From NCBI GenBank assembly GCA_951406725.2, contig OX597822.1, forward strand, positions 82,212,001 to 82,276,000: a stretch of 64,000 nucleotides of DNA, given 5' to 3'. The notes below the pieces were generated by a model. The model did not search any database and had not been told where the DNA came from. It worked only from the letters and a program-made list of their open reading frames with translations. This stretch comes from Octopus vulgaris. Its lineage: Eukaryota. Positions 2,240 through 45,460 of this stretch are shown one piece after another (position 1 is the stretch's first letter; every line of letters starts with the position of its first letter). The position numbers were made by a program, and so were the translations under genes.

Positions 2240-2914
2240 GAATGTCTAAGAAGGGGAGTTTATCATGCTGAATTCTATAGTGATTTGAATGTGAGGATTT
2301 ATGTTGTTTATAAAAGACTGGAATTGTTTCAGGTTATAAAAATGTTTCCTCCATAAAATGTAACAATCATCTAGAAACCTCTTCCAGTTTTCTTTCAAAT
2401 ATCAGCTGAAATTTTCACCAAAAGTTTCAGAAGATTTTTCATAGAGTTTTATTTTGTGATACCAGATGGTTAAGTTGGCATATGTAGGGGAAACTTGTTC
2501 CCATGGCTATTCTGAACTTTTGTTGATAGGCTATGTTATCAAATATGAAGCAGCTGTTCTCTAAGATGAATTGGAAGCATTCAATAATAAATTTTCTATC
2601 TATGCACCCTGGTGTTTTATATGGAAATGAGCCTAGCCAATATTCTACAGCTTCAATTCCCTAACTGTGAAGGATGTTGCTATATAGGTTCACAAAATCA
2701 AATGTGATCAAATAGGTGTTTTTATTTATTTTGTTAGGTAGATGGTTGAATATGTCCAAATTATCTTGTAAAAAGCTCTTTATATATTTGAGGAGCGCTT
2801 TTAGTAGAATGTCTAGGAAATTAATTAAGCAATGTGTTTCACACAATGGGCCTGTTACAATAAGTCTCAGTTTTAGATCTGATGGTTGTGGAATATTAAC
2901 GCAACTGTGTTTTG
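2240..2914 (-). mobile_element. Penelope-like retroelement reverse transcriptase fragment (decayed)
   Basis: Minus-strand peptides across frameshifts: LKLRLIVTGPLCETH, FLDILLK..YIKSFLQD, LITFDFVNLYSNI, IAMGT, WKRFLDDCYILW, PFLDI. These are PLE RT motifs in the correct order. Confidence 0.85.
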
Positions 2915-9491: not shown

Positions 9492-10473
9492 ATGATGGCC
9501 ATCCACTCGTGACCGAGGAAGACCATTGCCGACCTTCAGGAACATTGTGCGCTCTAAGACTAACTTATATTTTGCATTTGCAGCTCCATTGGTGGCTAAT
9601 GAGCCCTGCTCTTGACAAGCATACACAACTGCAAACATTGCAGACCAAGCTTTCCCCATTCACTATACGAGCCGTGCGCTTTCGCGCAGCTCGCTTAAGT
9701 TCTTCATGCTGGATACGTGCTCTCTCAAAAGTGTCAATCCCCTCCTTAACCTGCTTCCTCCATCTGTGGCGATGACAGGCATTGTTCTCCCAGTCAGTGT
9801 CCTGCATATCAAAGGCCTTTAATGAGGACTTGACACAGTCCTTAAATCGCAGTCTTGGTTTCTGCCGGAGTCTCCTTCCATTCACAAGTTCTCCATAGAG
9901 CATCTGCTTAGGAATCCTTCTATCCTCCATTCTAATAAGGTGTCCAATCCAACGCAACCGATGCTTGTGTACCATCGCCTCAATACTCAAGATATCAGCT
10001 GTCCTCAGGATCTGTGTGTCTGGAATTTTTGAGGTCCAGCCAACATTGAGAATGTGTCTGAGACATCTCTGATGAAAACGTTCAAGGACCCTGACCTGAC
10101 ATTTGTACAGAGTCCATGTCTCACATGAGTAGAGAAGCGATGTCAGTACACAAGCACGGTACACAGCAACTTTTGTTCTCCTTGCGATGCCATGTTGGGA
10201 CCAGACACGAGACTGAAGAGACCGGAAGGAATTAGTTGCTCTCTGCAACCTGAAAGATATTTCCTCATCCAGGGAGCAAGAACGGCTGAGTGTGCTGCCC
10301 AGGTAGACAAACTTGTCTACTACCTTCAGAATCGTTCCTTCAACCAAGATAGCTGGTTCTATATATGGATGTCCTGGTGCAGGCTGGAACATTACAACAG
10401 TCTTGTCCAGGCTAATGCTGAGTCCAAATGCCCTGCAAGAAGCAGAAATGCAATTCATGAGTATTTGCATGTC
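9492..10473 (-). mobile_element. RTE-clade LINE 3' fragment (end of RT, thumb, C-terminal Zn finger, 3'UTR)
   Basis: ORF 9565-10611: FGLSISLDKTVVM, VDKFVYLGSTLS, LLYSCETWTLY, LERFHQRCLRHIL, RLRWIGHLIRMEDRRIPKQMLYGEL, CNVCSCVCLSRAGLISH. Homology begins at DMQILMN (about 10473). Confidence 0.93.
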
Positions 10474-10700
10474 AAGGTATATGATGTTGTGGTTAGGAAA
10501 GAGCTTCAGACTTGCTTGTCCAGCATTGAAACTGCTGCAGGATGGGAAGATTTTCAAGACCAGGTTGCTCAATGTGCAGCCGAAACACTGGGGTATGTTA
10601 CTGCCAGACACAGAGACTGGTTTGATGAGAATGATGCTGAAATTTAACGACTATTAGTGGTGAAGCTCCATGCCCACAGTGTGTTGCTGCACAGAGAACT
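10474..10700 (+). mobile_element. Inverted upstream segment of an RTE LINE (endonuclease-RT linker)
   Basis: Plus-strand peptide WEDFQDQVAQCAAETLGYVTARHRDWFDENDAEI*RLL..K..AH, the characteristic RTE linker motif (DWFDEND). Confidence 0.85.
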
Positions 10701-21267: not shown

Positions 21268-22706
21268 CATGCATATGCATATGGTGGGGTGTATGTATTG
21301 ACAAACAGACAGACAGATACTTTAAATGGGTACACAGAAAGGTGTGACATTACTTAAGAAATTAGGTATGACTGAAATACTCTACACTCCATTCCTATCC
21401 TCAACACATTATTATATCTCTAGAAAAGCTGCTGTGCAGAATCCAAGCTATCATATAAAAGAAATATAACTGTATTTTATGCTTTGTGGAATGTATACAT
21501 GTTTCAGTAAGCTAATTGTTATTACACAAGCTGGTTGGCCATATTATGCAATAACAGTTGACACACTTCTTCAGCATTATCATCAAAAATACAACACAAA
21601 AAAAATTGTAATGCCTTGTATGCAAATTATAATACCAATATGCAAATTGAGTGCTGTTTGGTTAATGTAACAGAACGGCAGATGGAGGAAGTGAGAGGGT
21701 AACGATGTACAAGACAGAAATGAGATAGGTTGGAGATAAAAAGGTTGTCAAGGTCTAAGCCTTCACTCACTTGTACTCTGGTGGACCAATACACTCTTGC
21801 ACATGCTTGCAAAGGTACACATAGGCTTATTGGACTTATATAGTAAGAAGGGAAAGAAGAGCAACATGAGGTGCAGGTGGGGGGTGAACTCCAAACAACA
21901 TTGTATCACTAGTAAGAACAATAGTTACAAACAACAATAATATCAATAATAAAATAATGATAATAATAATGATTTGAAATGTTGGCACAAGGCCAGAATT
22001 TCTGGGAGAAAGGTAAATCGATTGCATCAGTCTTAGTGCTCAACTGGTCCTTATTTTATCAATCCCAAAAGGATGAAAGGAAAAATTGGCCTGAGCAGAA
22101 TTTGAACTCAGCACATCATCATCGTTTAACATCTGCTTTCCATGCTAGCATGGGTTGGACGGTTCAACTGGGGTCTGGGAAGCCAGAAGGCTGCACCAGG
22201 CCCAGTCTGATCTGGCAGTGTTTATACAGCTGGATGCCCTTCCTAACGCCAACCACTCTGTGAGTGTAGTGGGTGCTTTTTACGTGCCACCGGCACAGGT
22301 GCCAGACAAGGCTGGCAAACAGCCATGATCGGATGGTGCTTTTTACATGCCACCGGCACGGAGGCCAGTCAGGGTCGGTCGGAAGAAATGCTGCTATACA
22401 TTTATCTCAGCATGGTAATGTTTCTGCTAGCCCCCACACCCATTAATAATAATGGTTTCAAATTTTGCCACAAAGGTAGCCATTTTGGGAGGAGGGGATG
22501 AGCCAGTGCGAAACTGGTACTTAATTTATCGACCCCGAAAGGATGAAAGGTACAGCTGACCTCAGCAGAATTTGAACTCAGGACACGAAGATGGATGAAA
22601 TAGCGCTAAGCATTTTGTCCAGTGTACTAACGATTCTGCCTTAATAATAATAACGATGAACATTATTTACATTTGACGGATATTTGTCCTCATCTTGTTT
22701 GTTGTT

Positions 22707-22752
22707 AATACAACGTTTCGGCTGATACACCCTCCAGCCTTCATCAGGTGTC
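22707..22752 (-). ncRNA. Minimal type I hammerhead ribozyme
   Basis: Reverse complement: gacac-CTGATGA-a-ggctg(gagggtgtat)cagcc-GAAAC-GTT-gtatt. Confidence 0.75.
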
Positions 22753-22931
22753 TTGGGGAAATTTCAAACCGGGGTTCTCATTCCTAAGGTATTAGGGCTA
22801 CTAACCCCAAGATTCCGAGTTCGATTCTAAGCAATGACCTAAATAATAATAATAATAATGATAATAATAATAATAACAACAACAACGGAAAATACCTTAG
22901 GAATGAGAACCCAGGTTTGAAATTTCCCCAA

Positions 22932-22977
22932 GACACCTGATGAAGGCTGGAGGGTATATCAACCGAAACGTTGTGTT
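22932..22977 (+). ncRNA. Minimal type I hammerhead ribozyme
   Basis: gacac-CTGATGA-a-ggctg(gagggtatat)caacc-GAAAC-GTT-gtgtt; stem I gacac/gtgtt; palindromic ACGT in place of stem III. Confidence 0.75.
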
Positions 22978-24322
22978 AGCAACAATCAAGATGAGGACAA
23001 ATATCCGTCTAATGTAAATAATGTACATAATTCCTCATCTCTTAAATATAGAACTGAATGACGATGATAATATTAGCAAACAAATAATCAATATTTCCAA
23101 TTTTAGCAGTAAGTTGGTCATCTTTGAAGGTTGTAGTCAATTACATCAAGTCCAGTCTTCAATTGGGACTTATTTTATTGACCCCTGAAAGAATGGAAGT
23201 TGAAGTCAACCTGGACAAAATTTGAACTCAGAATGTAAAGAGATGAAAAGAAATGCTCATTAAGAGTTTCATAATTAACCCATTACAATACAGGTAAACT
23301 TAGGCATCCTTGAGATTTAGGGAAATATGTAACATTTACAAGCTGATAAGTTTGAACGGGGCATGCCTTCCTAATAAATGTAAAAGATTTCTTAGGGGAA
23401 GAAAGAGGGAAAAAGAAAGCATATATATAATGTATATACAATGGTGGTGCTCCAGCATGACCGCTGAAATGAGTAAAAGAGTAATTGAAACATGTCTGTC
23501 TGACGAATGCCATCAGGCAGAAATTTCAAAGCCAACTTTGCTCTTCTTGTAAGAGTTTAATAAACATGGGCTCTAACTGCAAAATATTGAGTGATTTTTC
23601 AGTTTAATGGTGAATGGTTTCGACACAGGCATGGTTGTGTGGTTAGAAGCTTGTGTTCCAACCACATGGTTCAGAGTTCAGTCCCACTGTGTGGCACCTT
23701 GGGCAAATGTCTTCTACTATAGCATCAGACCAACTATAGCTTTGTGAGTGGATTTGGTTGATGGAAACTGAAAGAAGCCCATCATGTGTGAGTGTATGTT
23801 TATCTGTGTGTGTGTGTGTGTGTGTATGAGTGTATGTTTATCTGTGTGTGTGTGTGTGTGTGTGTGTATCATCACTACCGCTTCACAACCAGTGTTGGTA
23901 CCTTTGTGTGCCTGTAACTTAGCAGTTCAAGAAAATGGAATGATAGAATAAGTACCAGGCTTAAGGTAATAAGTTAGGGGTTCAATTCATTCAACTAAAT
24001 ATTCGTCAAGGTGGTGCTCCAGCAAGGCCACTTGACTGAAACAAGTAAAAGATAAAAGAACTTGATGTAATAACATTTACACACACACACACGTTTGTTT
24101 TTATATGACGTGTGTGTGTGTGTGCATTTTGTATATATCAATATATACATGTATGCGTAAATGTGTATGAACCTAACAATGTATTGTACTTCGTTTATCA
24201 GCAACCCACTTCTGTGTCCTTGTGTAATGATGTAGGACATATCTGTGTGTGTGTGTGTTCTTTAAATTCAATTCTGTTTTTCTAATTCACACTGTGCTAT
24301 GCATAAACAGATTATATATACA

Positions 24323-28994: not shown

Positions 28995-29037
28995 CATCTC
29001 TGATGAGAATCCAATAAGATTTGAAACTGATTAAGGT
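28995..29037 (+). ncRNA. Decayed hammerhead motif
   Basis: CTGATGA-gaatc(caataa)gattt-GAAAC; stems I and III are poor. Preceded by three ~25-bp tandem units (28907-28982). Confidence 0.45.
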
Positions 29038-32846: not shown

Positions 32847-32881
32847 GTTTCTGACGAAGAGCTCCGCTCGAAACGTTAAAC
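32847..32881 (+). ncRNA. Minimal type I hammerhead ribozyme in a ~210-bp unit (32770-32980) between (TA)n tracts
   Basis: gttt-CTGACGA-a-gagc(tcc)gctc-GAAAC-GTT-aaac: canonical core with perfect stems I and II. Confidence 0.8.
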
Positions 32882-37129: not shown

Positions 37130-37290
37130 CAATAATAATAACATCGAAAAATACCTTAGTAATGAGAACCCAGGTTCGAAATTTCCCCAAGACACCTGAT
37201 GAAGGTGGGCGGGTTATCAGCGGAAATGTTGTGTTAACAACAAACAAGATGAGGACAAATATCCGTCAAATGTAAAATAATGTAAATAAA
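37130..37290 (+). mobile_element. Solo copy of the hammerhead-bearing arm of the 22660-23056 element
   Basis: (aat)n-aacatcgaaaaataccttag...gacacCTGATGAaggtgggcgggttatcagcgGAAAtgttgtgtt...tatccgtcaaatgtaa; the HHR is partly degenerate. Confidence 0.85.
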
Positions 37291-44014: not shown

Positions 44015-45460
44015 GAGGCAAAGGATAAGTTATCAAAATATATTGTTTTAAAATCATATGCACTAGATTATATGCTAAAACTGAAAATATATATGAAAAT
44101 ATGCTCAAAATATATTTAAAATACATTGAAAATATAGAGATATAAATATTTTTTTTAAATATATCGAAACTGTACGAAAATATATAATCACACTTACTTT
44201 TCAAAACGATTTTAAAATACGAAATAAAAATATAACGTATTGTCAATCCAAAAGTTTTGTATCTCGCTTAAAATGTAGGTATATAAAAATGGCTGAATCA
44301 ATTTGTACGATTACAGTTCTTTTGAGTTATGGCGGGTTTCTGATAAGGATATGAAGCTACTCTTAAGAAGAAGCTATTTATAATATTAGAGATGGTAAGT
44401 TGATTTTATTACTACCCACAAGGGGCGAACATAGAGGGGACGATACAATCTGATGTGGGGTCAGACATACGGATGGTTTTTACAAAAAATCGGATTTAAA
44501 AATAACATGAAATTACAAGAATATACACAAAATCGAATGATGAAACAGACCGGAAGATGGTCCAACCCAAATTTTGTATTTCATATTTATTGGAATTATT
44601 ATTTTATTGTGTGGAGTTAACTAGAAGTTTAAGGATCGAATAGTACCTACGTCTACCAGAAACAATGGCGTCCGAAAACCTATTCAACATTAGGGAGTTA
44701 TACGTACACAGAATAGTCAGGGATTCCCTAATACAAAAATTACATTTACGTGTGTATGAATTATAAGGGGAGGTTTCTGTTACTATTGACCAGGATAATT
44801 CATACTGTATGTTCTGCATTTTAAAATTGTGGATATGTGTAGCTAAAGAAGTAGAAAATCTCGTTCTAATGTTAATAAAAGAATTCAAATGTGCCCGACA
44901 TCTAATAATAATTCCAATAACTATGAAATACAAAATTTTGTTTGGACCATCTTCAACCTACCATCTCTAATATTATAAATAGTTTCTTCTTAATAGTAGC
45001 TTAATATATTCATAAAGATTTGTCAGAAACGGATCGCCCATTACCCAAAATAAATGTAATCGTACAAATTGAATCATCCTTAATGAAGGAGACGGTGGTA
45101 TTGAGTTAACTTAAGTTCATTTTTGCATAATTGTTCCCTCAGAAACGGCCGTCGGATGTGAACCCCTGGATGTTATACTTCTAAATGGATTCATTTTTAT
45201 ATACCTAGATTTTAAGCGAGTTACAAAACTTTTGGATTGACAATTCGTTATATTTTTATTTCGTATTTTAATATCGTTTTTAAAAGTAAGAGTGATTATA
45301 TATTTTCGTACAGTTTCGATAAATTTTAAAAATATATTTATATCTATATATTTTTAATGTATTTTAAATATATTTTGTGCATATTTTCATATAAATATAC
45401 TCTTAGCACATAATGCATGATTTTAAAAATGAATATATTTTGATAGCTTATCCTTGTCTC
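44015..45460 (-). mobile_element. Penelope-like relic: GIY-YIG endonuclease C-terminal fragment (44610-44903) between long inverted arms
   Basis: RCRAHLNSF...STSLATHIHNFK...LSWSIV...PY...KCNFCIRESLTIL...LNR is the PLE endonuclease C-terminus. Arms 44015-44603 and 44903-45460 are reverse complements, each with one private insertion. Confidence 0.8.

What the first reader, a model, noticed from the sequence alone, without database searches (positions are those of the whole stretch)
22660..23056. tRNA-like segment joined to twin inverted hammerhead ribozymes in one TSD-bounded 397-bp mobile unit
Seen: an 11-bp TSD (1 mismatch) and two 134-bp inverted arms, each with a complete minimal type I hammerhead (CUGAUGA/GAAAC/GUU). 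Between the arms lies gggctactaaccc-caagatt-ccgagttcgattc, which looks like a tRNA anticodon arm plus T-loop/B box, followed by an (AAT)n linker. A solo arm recurs at 37130-37290. Known: minimal hammerheads with palindromic stem III mark the pLTRs of Penelope-like elements, PLE insertions often have inverted 5' ends, and Schistosoma Sm-alpha combines a tRNA-type Pol III promoter with a hammerhead. Inference: a Pol III-driven, self-cleaving, non-autonomous retroelement (SINE/retrozyme hybrid) mobilised by a PLE in a cephalopod, with a ribozyme on both strands.
Basis: partly seen in the sequence, partly recalled or inferred. Interest (0 to 1): 0.82.

Follow-up and report, generated by a model that had tools for sequence, protein, structure and literature searches.

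The report
Penelope transposon carrying tRNA-derived start region

Summary
In detail: 94% inverted arms, a minimal hammerhead in each, a tRNA-like B-box piece, and a 10/11 TSD. The 'non-autonomous SINE/retrozyme' reading is not supported. The unit is the pseudo-LTR (pLTR) of an autonomous Penelope/Poseidon-type element: other copies run upstream into an RT + GIY-YIG ORF, and the hammerhead arm encodes that ORF's N-terminus. Inverted arm + one 32-nt tail + TSD is the published Penelope insertion form (55 of 86 sampled insertions are inverted; 42 of 48 pairs have exactly one tail). Short copies form no separate subfamily. This copy lacks the A box.

The new part lies in the parent element. Its pLTR starts with a 73-nt tRNA-derived A/B-box segment. 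Of 48 insertions reaching that segment, 37 stop within 30 nt of its start, with a wall about 13 nt before the A box. Genome-wide, exact 21-mer counts fall from 4006 to 863 across that point. The sense strand has no TTTT in 2.35 kb; all 21 long control ORFs have 3 or more. This fits a Pol III-type promoter but is untested, and the RNA-seq was uninformative.

The parts
22649..22659 (.). left target-site duplication
   Evidence: 10 of 11 identical to 23057-23067
22660..22793 (-). inverted, 5'-truncated, untailed pLTR arm (ends at the first 3' end class)
   Evidence: 3' ends of arms are bimodal
22707..22752 (-). minimal type I hammerhead motif; one stem I mismatch; predicted cut after 22712
   Evidence: architecture as described in PMC4209133
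22795..22839 (+). 3' 45 nt (positions 29-73) of the 73-nt tRNA-derived head of the pLTR; the A box is lost in this copy
22819..22827 (+). B-box-like motif (T-loop)
   Evidence: seen in the sequence
22840..22885 (+). (AAT/AAC)n tract, a fixed but length-variable part of the pLTR
22886..23024 (+). forward pLTR arm; holds the ORF start codon (22903) and first codons, with a premature stop at codon 6 in this copy
   Evidence: tblastn 52% to residues 18-59 of the 847-aa relative P0004, E 7e-7 in a 500-nt subject
22932..22977 (+). minimal type I hammerhead motif overlapping the coding frame; one stem II mismatch; predicted cut after 22972
23025..23056 (+). 32-nt Penelope 'tail'; in full-length copies it continues directly into the ORF
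   Evidence: tail concept from PMC11167929 and PMC8557442
23057..23067 (.). right target-site duplication
37131..37289 (+). second, solo, untailed arm of the same family with a damaged hammerhead

Best explanation
The locus is a truncated, partly inverted copy of the terminal repeat (pLTR) of an abundant protein-coding Penelope-type retrotransposon, whose tRNA-derived head likely marks the start of the element's RNA and may work as an internal Pol III-type promoter. Shown: the parent is pLTR (tRNA head - AAT tract - ATG - hammerhead - tail) -> about 830-codon RT + GIY-YIG ORF -> pLTR. Most insertions are pLTR-only with one inverted arm, one tail and a TSD, and their 5' ends stop just before the A box. 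Inferred from the in-vitro work on anole Poseidon: the protein nicks both strands of AT-rich DNA and starts reverse transcription at two internal sites in the ORF's 5' part. That gives one tailed and one untailed cDNA; both run back toward the RNA 5' end and join head to head by microhomology, making this twin-hammerhead form from uncleaved RNA. Inferred: the minority of copies that pass into the ORF come from tandem or hammerhead-circularised templates. Inferred: this copy is dead, having no A box, nothing beyond the tail, and a long self-hairpin.
For: ORF linkage: 24 of 30 head-selected loci share 78-930 nt of upstream sequence that translates to RT C-terminus, thumb and GIY-YIG; that query held 14 upstream bases, so it favours ORF-linked copies. 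Full-length layout seen in natural copies. The majority of 49 long copies is one 783-codon open frame. Relatives carry RT (PF00078) and are 51-68% identical at best. Insertion form, 86 insertions picked only by an exact hammerhead 36-mer: 55 inverted; 42 of 48 pairs with exactly one tail, 0 with two; bimodal 3' ends. This matches passages of PMC8557442 and PMC11167929. 5' wall: 43 of 141 arm ends at -9..+9 (2.3 per nt) against 12 over the 780 nt upstream; 37 of 48 insertions stop at -20..+9 against 5.5% expected from the upstream rate. None of the 50 junctions printed keeps native sequence beyond about -6/-7. Exact 21-mers: 4006 inside the head, 863 just upstream. tRNA origin: best matches are host tRNA-Arg, z 8-9 against shuffles, among 35 tRNA sequences. 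Terminators: 0 T4 runs in the 2355-nt sense majority; all 21 long control PLE ORFs have 3-22; 23 of 30 host tRNA genes show T4 or more within 35 nt downstream.
Against: No direct evidence of any promoter. RNA-seq depth from three runs of a related or same-labelled organism tracks DNA copy depth, is strand-symmetric, and shows no start at the head. The lack of T4 is only modestly significant (P 0.019 base shuffle, 0.037 synonymous shuffle, about 0.08 from run-length decay), was noticed post hoc, and 2 of 44 control ORFs (both short) also have none. Two small palindromes at -6..+4 and +4..+9 could set some junction positions. The head does not fold as a tRNA and hits no Rfam family. An uncapped Pol III RNA would be a poor mRNA. 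The one dissected Penelope promoter resembles the TATA-less Inr/DPE promoters of LINEs (PMC2377424, passages). Hammerhead columns are no better conserved than their neighbours and show only 4 compensatory changes in 1496 pair cells, as expected for dead copies.
Confidence: 0.75

Rival explanations
1. The tRNA-derived piece is a passive relic of a SINE or tRNA inserted in the pLTR. The element is transcribed by Pol II from an ordinary internal promoter that starts at about the same place, or the small palindromes at the head make cDNAs fold back there.
For: D. virilis Penelope has a LINE-like internal promoter in its pLTR (PMC2377424 passages). An Inr-like 7-mer lies at about -20 (seen in the sequence; consensus recalled). 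Many junctions use the two palindromes. The T4 statistics are weak. The head is as close to host SINE heads (score 62-63) as to tRNA-Arg (62).
Against: The wall is at -6/-7, not at the Inr-like site. About half of the 50 junctions join to a different point of the partner arm or to flank and so are not symmetric fold-backs. The same 6-nt palindrome recurs about 75 nt upstream with no pile-up. All 21 long control ORFs carry T4 runs.
Confidence: 0.4
2. One reading: an independent, Pol III-driven, self-cleaving non-autonomous SINE/retrozyme mobilised in trans by a PLE.
For: About three quarters of the copies reaching the head start there, so they look like 300-bp tRNA SINEs. 44 of 106 complete heads keep both boxes. 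Schistosome Sm-alpha pairs a Pol III promoter with a hammerhead (PMC6765202 passages).
Against: Head, AAT tract, arm and tail are all native parts of the autonomous pLTR. No diagnostic column separates 55 short from 45 ORF-linked arms: 2 of up to 248 columns reach p<0.01 and none survives correction; 36 other arms were left out. In anole Poseidon the RNA needed for insertion extends past the initiation sites (PMC11167929), so tail-ended copies would lose it. No head-to-tail tandem arrays of the short unit dominate the sample.
Confidence: 0.07
3. Division of labour: Pol III from the head makes the template RNA (short or full length), while the protein is translated from separate Pol II read-through RNAs. 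Internally deleted masters (pLTR + ORF 5' part) could act as a nascent SINE-like parasite.
For: It reconciles the wall and the T4 absence with the translation problem. One natural copy joins head position -5 to an internal ORF position, as a template jump from an RNA end would (L193).
Against: No family of internally deleted masters was seen among the 30 loci picked by the ORF 5' part. No expression evidence.
Confidence: 0.2

Closest known systems
Penelope/Poseidon-clade PLEs, e.g. anole PAc (PMC11167929) and D. virilis Penelope (PMC2377424)
   Same: Single ORF with RT and C-terminal GIY-YIG; pLTRs; hammerhead overlapping the ORF start; two 3' end classes with a 30-40 nt tail; AT-rich targets; inverted 5'-truncated partner (PMC8557442).
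   Different: The pLTR begins with a 73-nt tRNA-derived A/B-box segment at which most copies start. No such segment was found after 28 distant PLE ORFs with 500 nt or more of downstream DNA, and none is mentioned in the passages read.
Minimal PLE hammerheads (PMC4209133)
   Same: 5-bp stem I, extra base before a 6-bp stem II, palindromic remnant of stem III; opposite-strand pairs 100-700 bp apart are already reported.
   Different: Nothing essential; the predicted cleavage triplet here is GUU.
TRIMp3: Cassandra, Helenus, Ajax (PMC10886601)
   Same: A small-RNA-derived Pol III promoter captured inside a terminal repeat.
   Different: Those are short non-autonomous LTR elements. The paper argues that autonomous partners must use Pol II. 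Here the tRNA piece sits in an autonomous, non-LTR-type element.
Schistosoma Sm-alpha and animal non-LTR retrozymes (PMC6765202; bioRxiv 10.64898/2026.07.22.740005)
   Same: Pol III promoter plus type I hammerhead (Sm-alpha); derivation from PLE pLTRs (retrozymes).
   Different: Those are non-coding head-to-tail tandem units. Here the units are dispersed, head-to-head, and not a lineage apart from the coding element.

Membership tests
Penelope-like element (EN+, Penelope/Poseidon type) | Single ORF with RT followed by a C-terminal GIY-YIG endonuclease | tested here: met
   Translations of natural copies; 783-codon majority frame; RT Pfam hit on relatives. The GIY-YIG call rests on recalled motifs; Pfam gave no hit on P0001.
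Penelope-like element (EN+, Penelope/Poseidon type) | pLTR flanking the ORF, holding a minimal hammerhead | tested here: met
Penelope-like element (EN+, Penelope/Poseidon type) | 5'-truncated and inverted insertions with a 30-40 nt tail at one end | tested here: met
   55 of 86 inverted; 42 of 48 pairs with one tail, none with two
Penelope-like element (EN+, Penelope/Poseidon type) | Placement in the Penelope/Poseidon clade by RT tree | not tested
   No tree with named references was built; 50% identity over 118 aa to an unnamed anole protein.
tRNA-derived SINE | tRNA-related head with spaced A and B boxes at the 5' end | tested here: met
   Met in the family; the A box is missing in the window copy.
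tRNA-derived SINE | Independent non-autonomous lineage, with a head not part of the partner's own sequence | tested here: not met
   The head is native to the autonomous pLTR, and there are no diagnostic variants.
tRNA-derived SINE | Transcription by Pol III | not testable with these tools
   Indirect only; RNA-seq uninformative.
Non-LTR retrozyme | Head-to-tail tandem non-coding units, each with a type I hammerhead | tested here: not met
   Units are dispersed and inverted, and the arm is coding.
Active hammerhead ribozyme | Self-cleavage | not testable with these tools
   Motif only; 26 of 136 arms keep an intact core with at most one mismatch per stem. In this locus the long hairpin dominates.

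The most novel reading that the evidence does not exclude
An autonomous, protein-coding Penelope retrotransposon has captured a tRNA-type Pol III promoter as its own. Its whole 2.7-kb sense strand is purged of TTTT terminators so that Pol III can read through the ORF, and run-off at this start site has filled the genome with over ten thousand SINE-look-alike, hammerhead-bearing hairpins.
Probability: 0.3. Interest if true: 0.75.

Novelty: new variant of a known kind. Interest (0 to 1): 0.42.

Why it matters
The flagged twin-ribozyme unit is textbook Penelope debris and should be annotated as PLE, not SINE; automated pipelines could easily file such copies as tRNA SINEs. The tRNA-headed pLTR matters more. 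Pol III promoters in terminal repeats have been described for short non-coding elements, with the stated expectation that autonomous ones need Pol II (PMC10886601). A Pol III-driven coding retrotransposon would challenge that and offer a route from PLE to SINE-like elements. Independently of the polymerase, the sharp 5' wall plus the one-tail rule gives a genomic test of the internal-initiation model and of what template (linear, tandem, circular) PLEs copy.

Tried and rejected
Rfam and ARAGORN: no hammerhead or tRNA hit; the miRNA-family hits only reflect the long hairpin. Local folding of single arms gave no stability signal (z -0.1 to -1.4). Pfam on P0001 and on two window ORFs gave nothing useful. 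A single-protein scan of metagenome contigs and an alignment scan of viral contigs found nothing. A search for sister families in the host with P0004 returned only this family in all 30 loci. No DNA could be seen for the closest outside relatives (P0002-P0005), so whether they carry the head is open. Sequencing runs: no RNA holder on record; 20 rows from 5 coded organisms hold 0.24-0.57 of the words. The lay of three RNA runs was uninformative about start sites. The first pile-up frame missed a 40-nt segment and was replaced. The stem I test had an index slip, corrected. The head HMM came from only 2 sequences and was rebuilt from 79. Donor of the head: tRNA-Arg and host SINE heads score alike, so it is unresolved; tRNA-Arg(ACG) was not among the tRNAs retrieved. 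Earlier scan findings: three look-ups returned nothing. Rejected: hammerhead cleavage as the source of copy 5' ends, since inverted partner arms show no pile-up at the cut site. PDB search gave only weak RT hits.

Full report
Observation. The window shows 138-nt arms at 22656-22793 and 22891-23028, 94% complementary. They are flanked by an 11-nt repeat with one mismatch. Each arm has the minimal type I hammerhead layout described in PMC4209133 (parts 1-2 of 4 read), with one helix mismatch each. A third, damaged arm lies at 37131-37289. Rfam and ARAGORN recognise neither a hammerhead nor a tRNA. The whole unit is predicted to fold as one hairpin of -230 kcal/mol, z -29.

It is a repeat family. 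The unit gave 5771 first-look candidates in the host genome, of which 40 were scored. An exact hammerhead 36-mer occurs 2730 times, against 0 for the reversed control. With 5-7% divergence from the majority, the family has on the order of ten thousand or more arms (my estimate). Other copies carry a complete 73-nt head with A and B boxes. The host looks like an octopus from recalled repeat types; this was not tested.

It belongs to an autonomous element. Of 30 loci picked by the head, 29 have the arm downstream and 24 share 78-930 nt of upstream sequence. The query held 14 upstream bases and so favours such copies. That sequence translates to the end of a reverse transcriptase, a thumb region and a GIY-YIG-type domain (motifs recalled), with the stop about 30 nt before the head. 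At the other end, full-length copies show the same pLTR and tail running straight into the ORF. The majority of 49 long copies (56 extracted, 7 duplicates dropped) is one open frame of 783 codons. The arm itself encodes the first codons: 52% identity to residues 18-59 of an 847-aa relative. Relatives carry PF00078 and reach 51-68% identity. All 30 loci found with that relative are this family.

The insertion form is canonical. I took 90 loci from the first 100 listed exact hammerhead hits, all on contig C1, and dropped 4 as duplicates; 10 listed hits were not fetched. Of the 86, an automated parse found an adjacent inverted arm in 55; it missed a few more. Of 48 pairs with both ends called, 42 have exactly one tail, 6 none and 0 two. 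The 3' ends fall in two classes, and exact flank repeats of 8-16 nt are common. PMC8557442 (passages) describes the inverted 5'-truncated partner and the one-sided 30-40 nt tail as general PLE features. PMC4209133 already reports opposite-strand hammerhead pairs. PMC11167929 (parts 1-2 of 4) shows for anole Poseidon that both strands are cut and extended, that reverse transcription starts at two internal sites bounding the tail, that uncleaved RNA is the main template, and that sequence up to +172 of the ORF is needed. Applying this here is inference.

Not a separate SINE. Among 136 arms with head and arm both present, 55 short and 45 ORF-linked ones share the same majority and minor variants. 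Two of up to 248 columns reach p<0.01 and neither survives correction; 36 other arms were left out. Short arms are slightly closer to the majority (5.4% against 6.8%), which may reflect how they were picked. The window copy keeps only head positions 29-73 and so has no A box.

What is unusual. The head aligns best with host tRNA-Arg among 35 tRNA sequences (z 8-9) and equally well with host SINE heads; it no longer folds as a tRNA. Copy 5' ends pile up at its start. Of 141 arm ends, 43 lie at -9..+9, against 12 over the 780 nt upstream. Of 48 insertions reaching that zone, 37 stop within 30 nt, where the upstream rate predicts 5.5%. None of the 50 printed junctions keeps native sequence beyond about -6/-7, which is 13-14 nt before the A box. 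Genome-wide, an exact 21-mer inside the head occurs 4006 times and one just upstream 863 times; the two words may decay at somewhat different rates.

The sense-strand majority has no run of four T in 2355 nt. The expectation is 4.0, 2.6 or 2.6 by three nulls, with P 0.019, 0.037 and about 0.08. All 21 control PLE ORFs of 700 codons or more have 3-22 such runs, while 2 of 44 ORFs of 330 codons or more have none, both short. Two other host PLE relic families have T4 runs. Of 30 host tRNA genes, 23 show T4 or more within 35 nt downstream. No A/B-box pair was found after the 28 control ORFs with 500 nt or more downstream, but these are distant relatives.

Against, and unresolved. Three RNA-seq runs laid on a full-length copy follow DNA depth, are strand-symmetric and show no start at the head; they neither support nor exclude a promoter. 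Small palindromes at the head shape many junctions. The dissected D. virilis promoter is LINE-like (PMC2377424, passages). How an uncapped RNA would be translated is open. My odds: truncated PLE copy 0.95; RNA 5' end at the head 0.8; Pol III promoter about 0.45; Pol III reading the whole unit about 0.3.

Literature. Ten full-text searches listed no paper whose title or abstract start describes a tRNA-derived segment or Pol III promoter in a PLE. One search, with all four such terms, gave 0 papers. The nearest cases are TRIMp3 elements (PMC10886601, passages), schistosome Sm-alpha (PMC6765202, passages) and PLE-derived retrozymes (bioRxiv 10.64898/2026.07.22.740005, part 1 of 5; its supplements are closed). 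An octopus repeat annotation lists 190 Penelope-like families without structural detail in the passages and supplement rows seen (PMC13282606). Repbase, Dfam and subscription journals were not searchable, so the family may already be catalogued.

Verdict. The flagged structure is real but is known PLE architecture, and the SINE/retrozyme reading fails. The tRNA-headed pLTR with a sharp 5' wall is a new variant worth a direct promoter test. Interest 0.42.

Noticed in passing
window 2273-2879 (-): Degenerate RT fragment of an older PLE family; other copies 66-81% identical. Used only as a T-run control.
   Followed up: partly
window 44300-45090: Another PLE-like relic: a GIY-YIG C-terminal-like ORF at 44604-44957 (-) with inverted ends, next to a 160-bp repeat (44398-44557) that is 90-99% identical at many loci and so looks recently active.
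   Followed up: partly
window 32852-32877 (+): A further minimal-hammerhead-like motif in an unrelated repeat; a weaker one lies near 29000.
   Followed up: no
window 9565-10650 (-): 361-codon stop-free frame resembling the C-terminal half of an RTE-type LINE ORF (resemblance recalled; no Pfam hit).
   Followed up: no
L193, oriented 1436-2375: A copy in which head position -5 is joined to an internal ORF position, as expected from a template jump at an RNA 5' end.
   Followed up: partly
L066, L069, L070, L073, L081, L082, L089 (contig C31): The same insertion with shared flanks recurs many times on one contig, i.e. inside a larger duplicated block.
   Followed up: no
family-wide: About two thirds of sampled insertions are long inverted repeats, so read-through transcripts would form many long double-stranded hairpins, candidate editing or Dicer substrates; not tested.
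   Followed up: no
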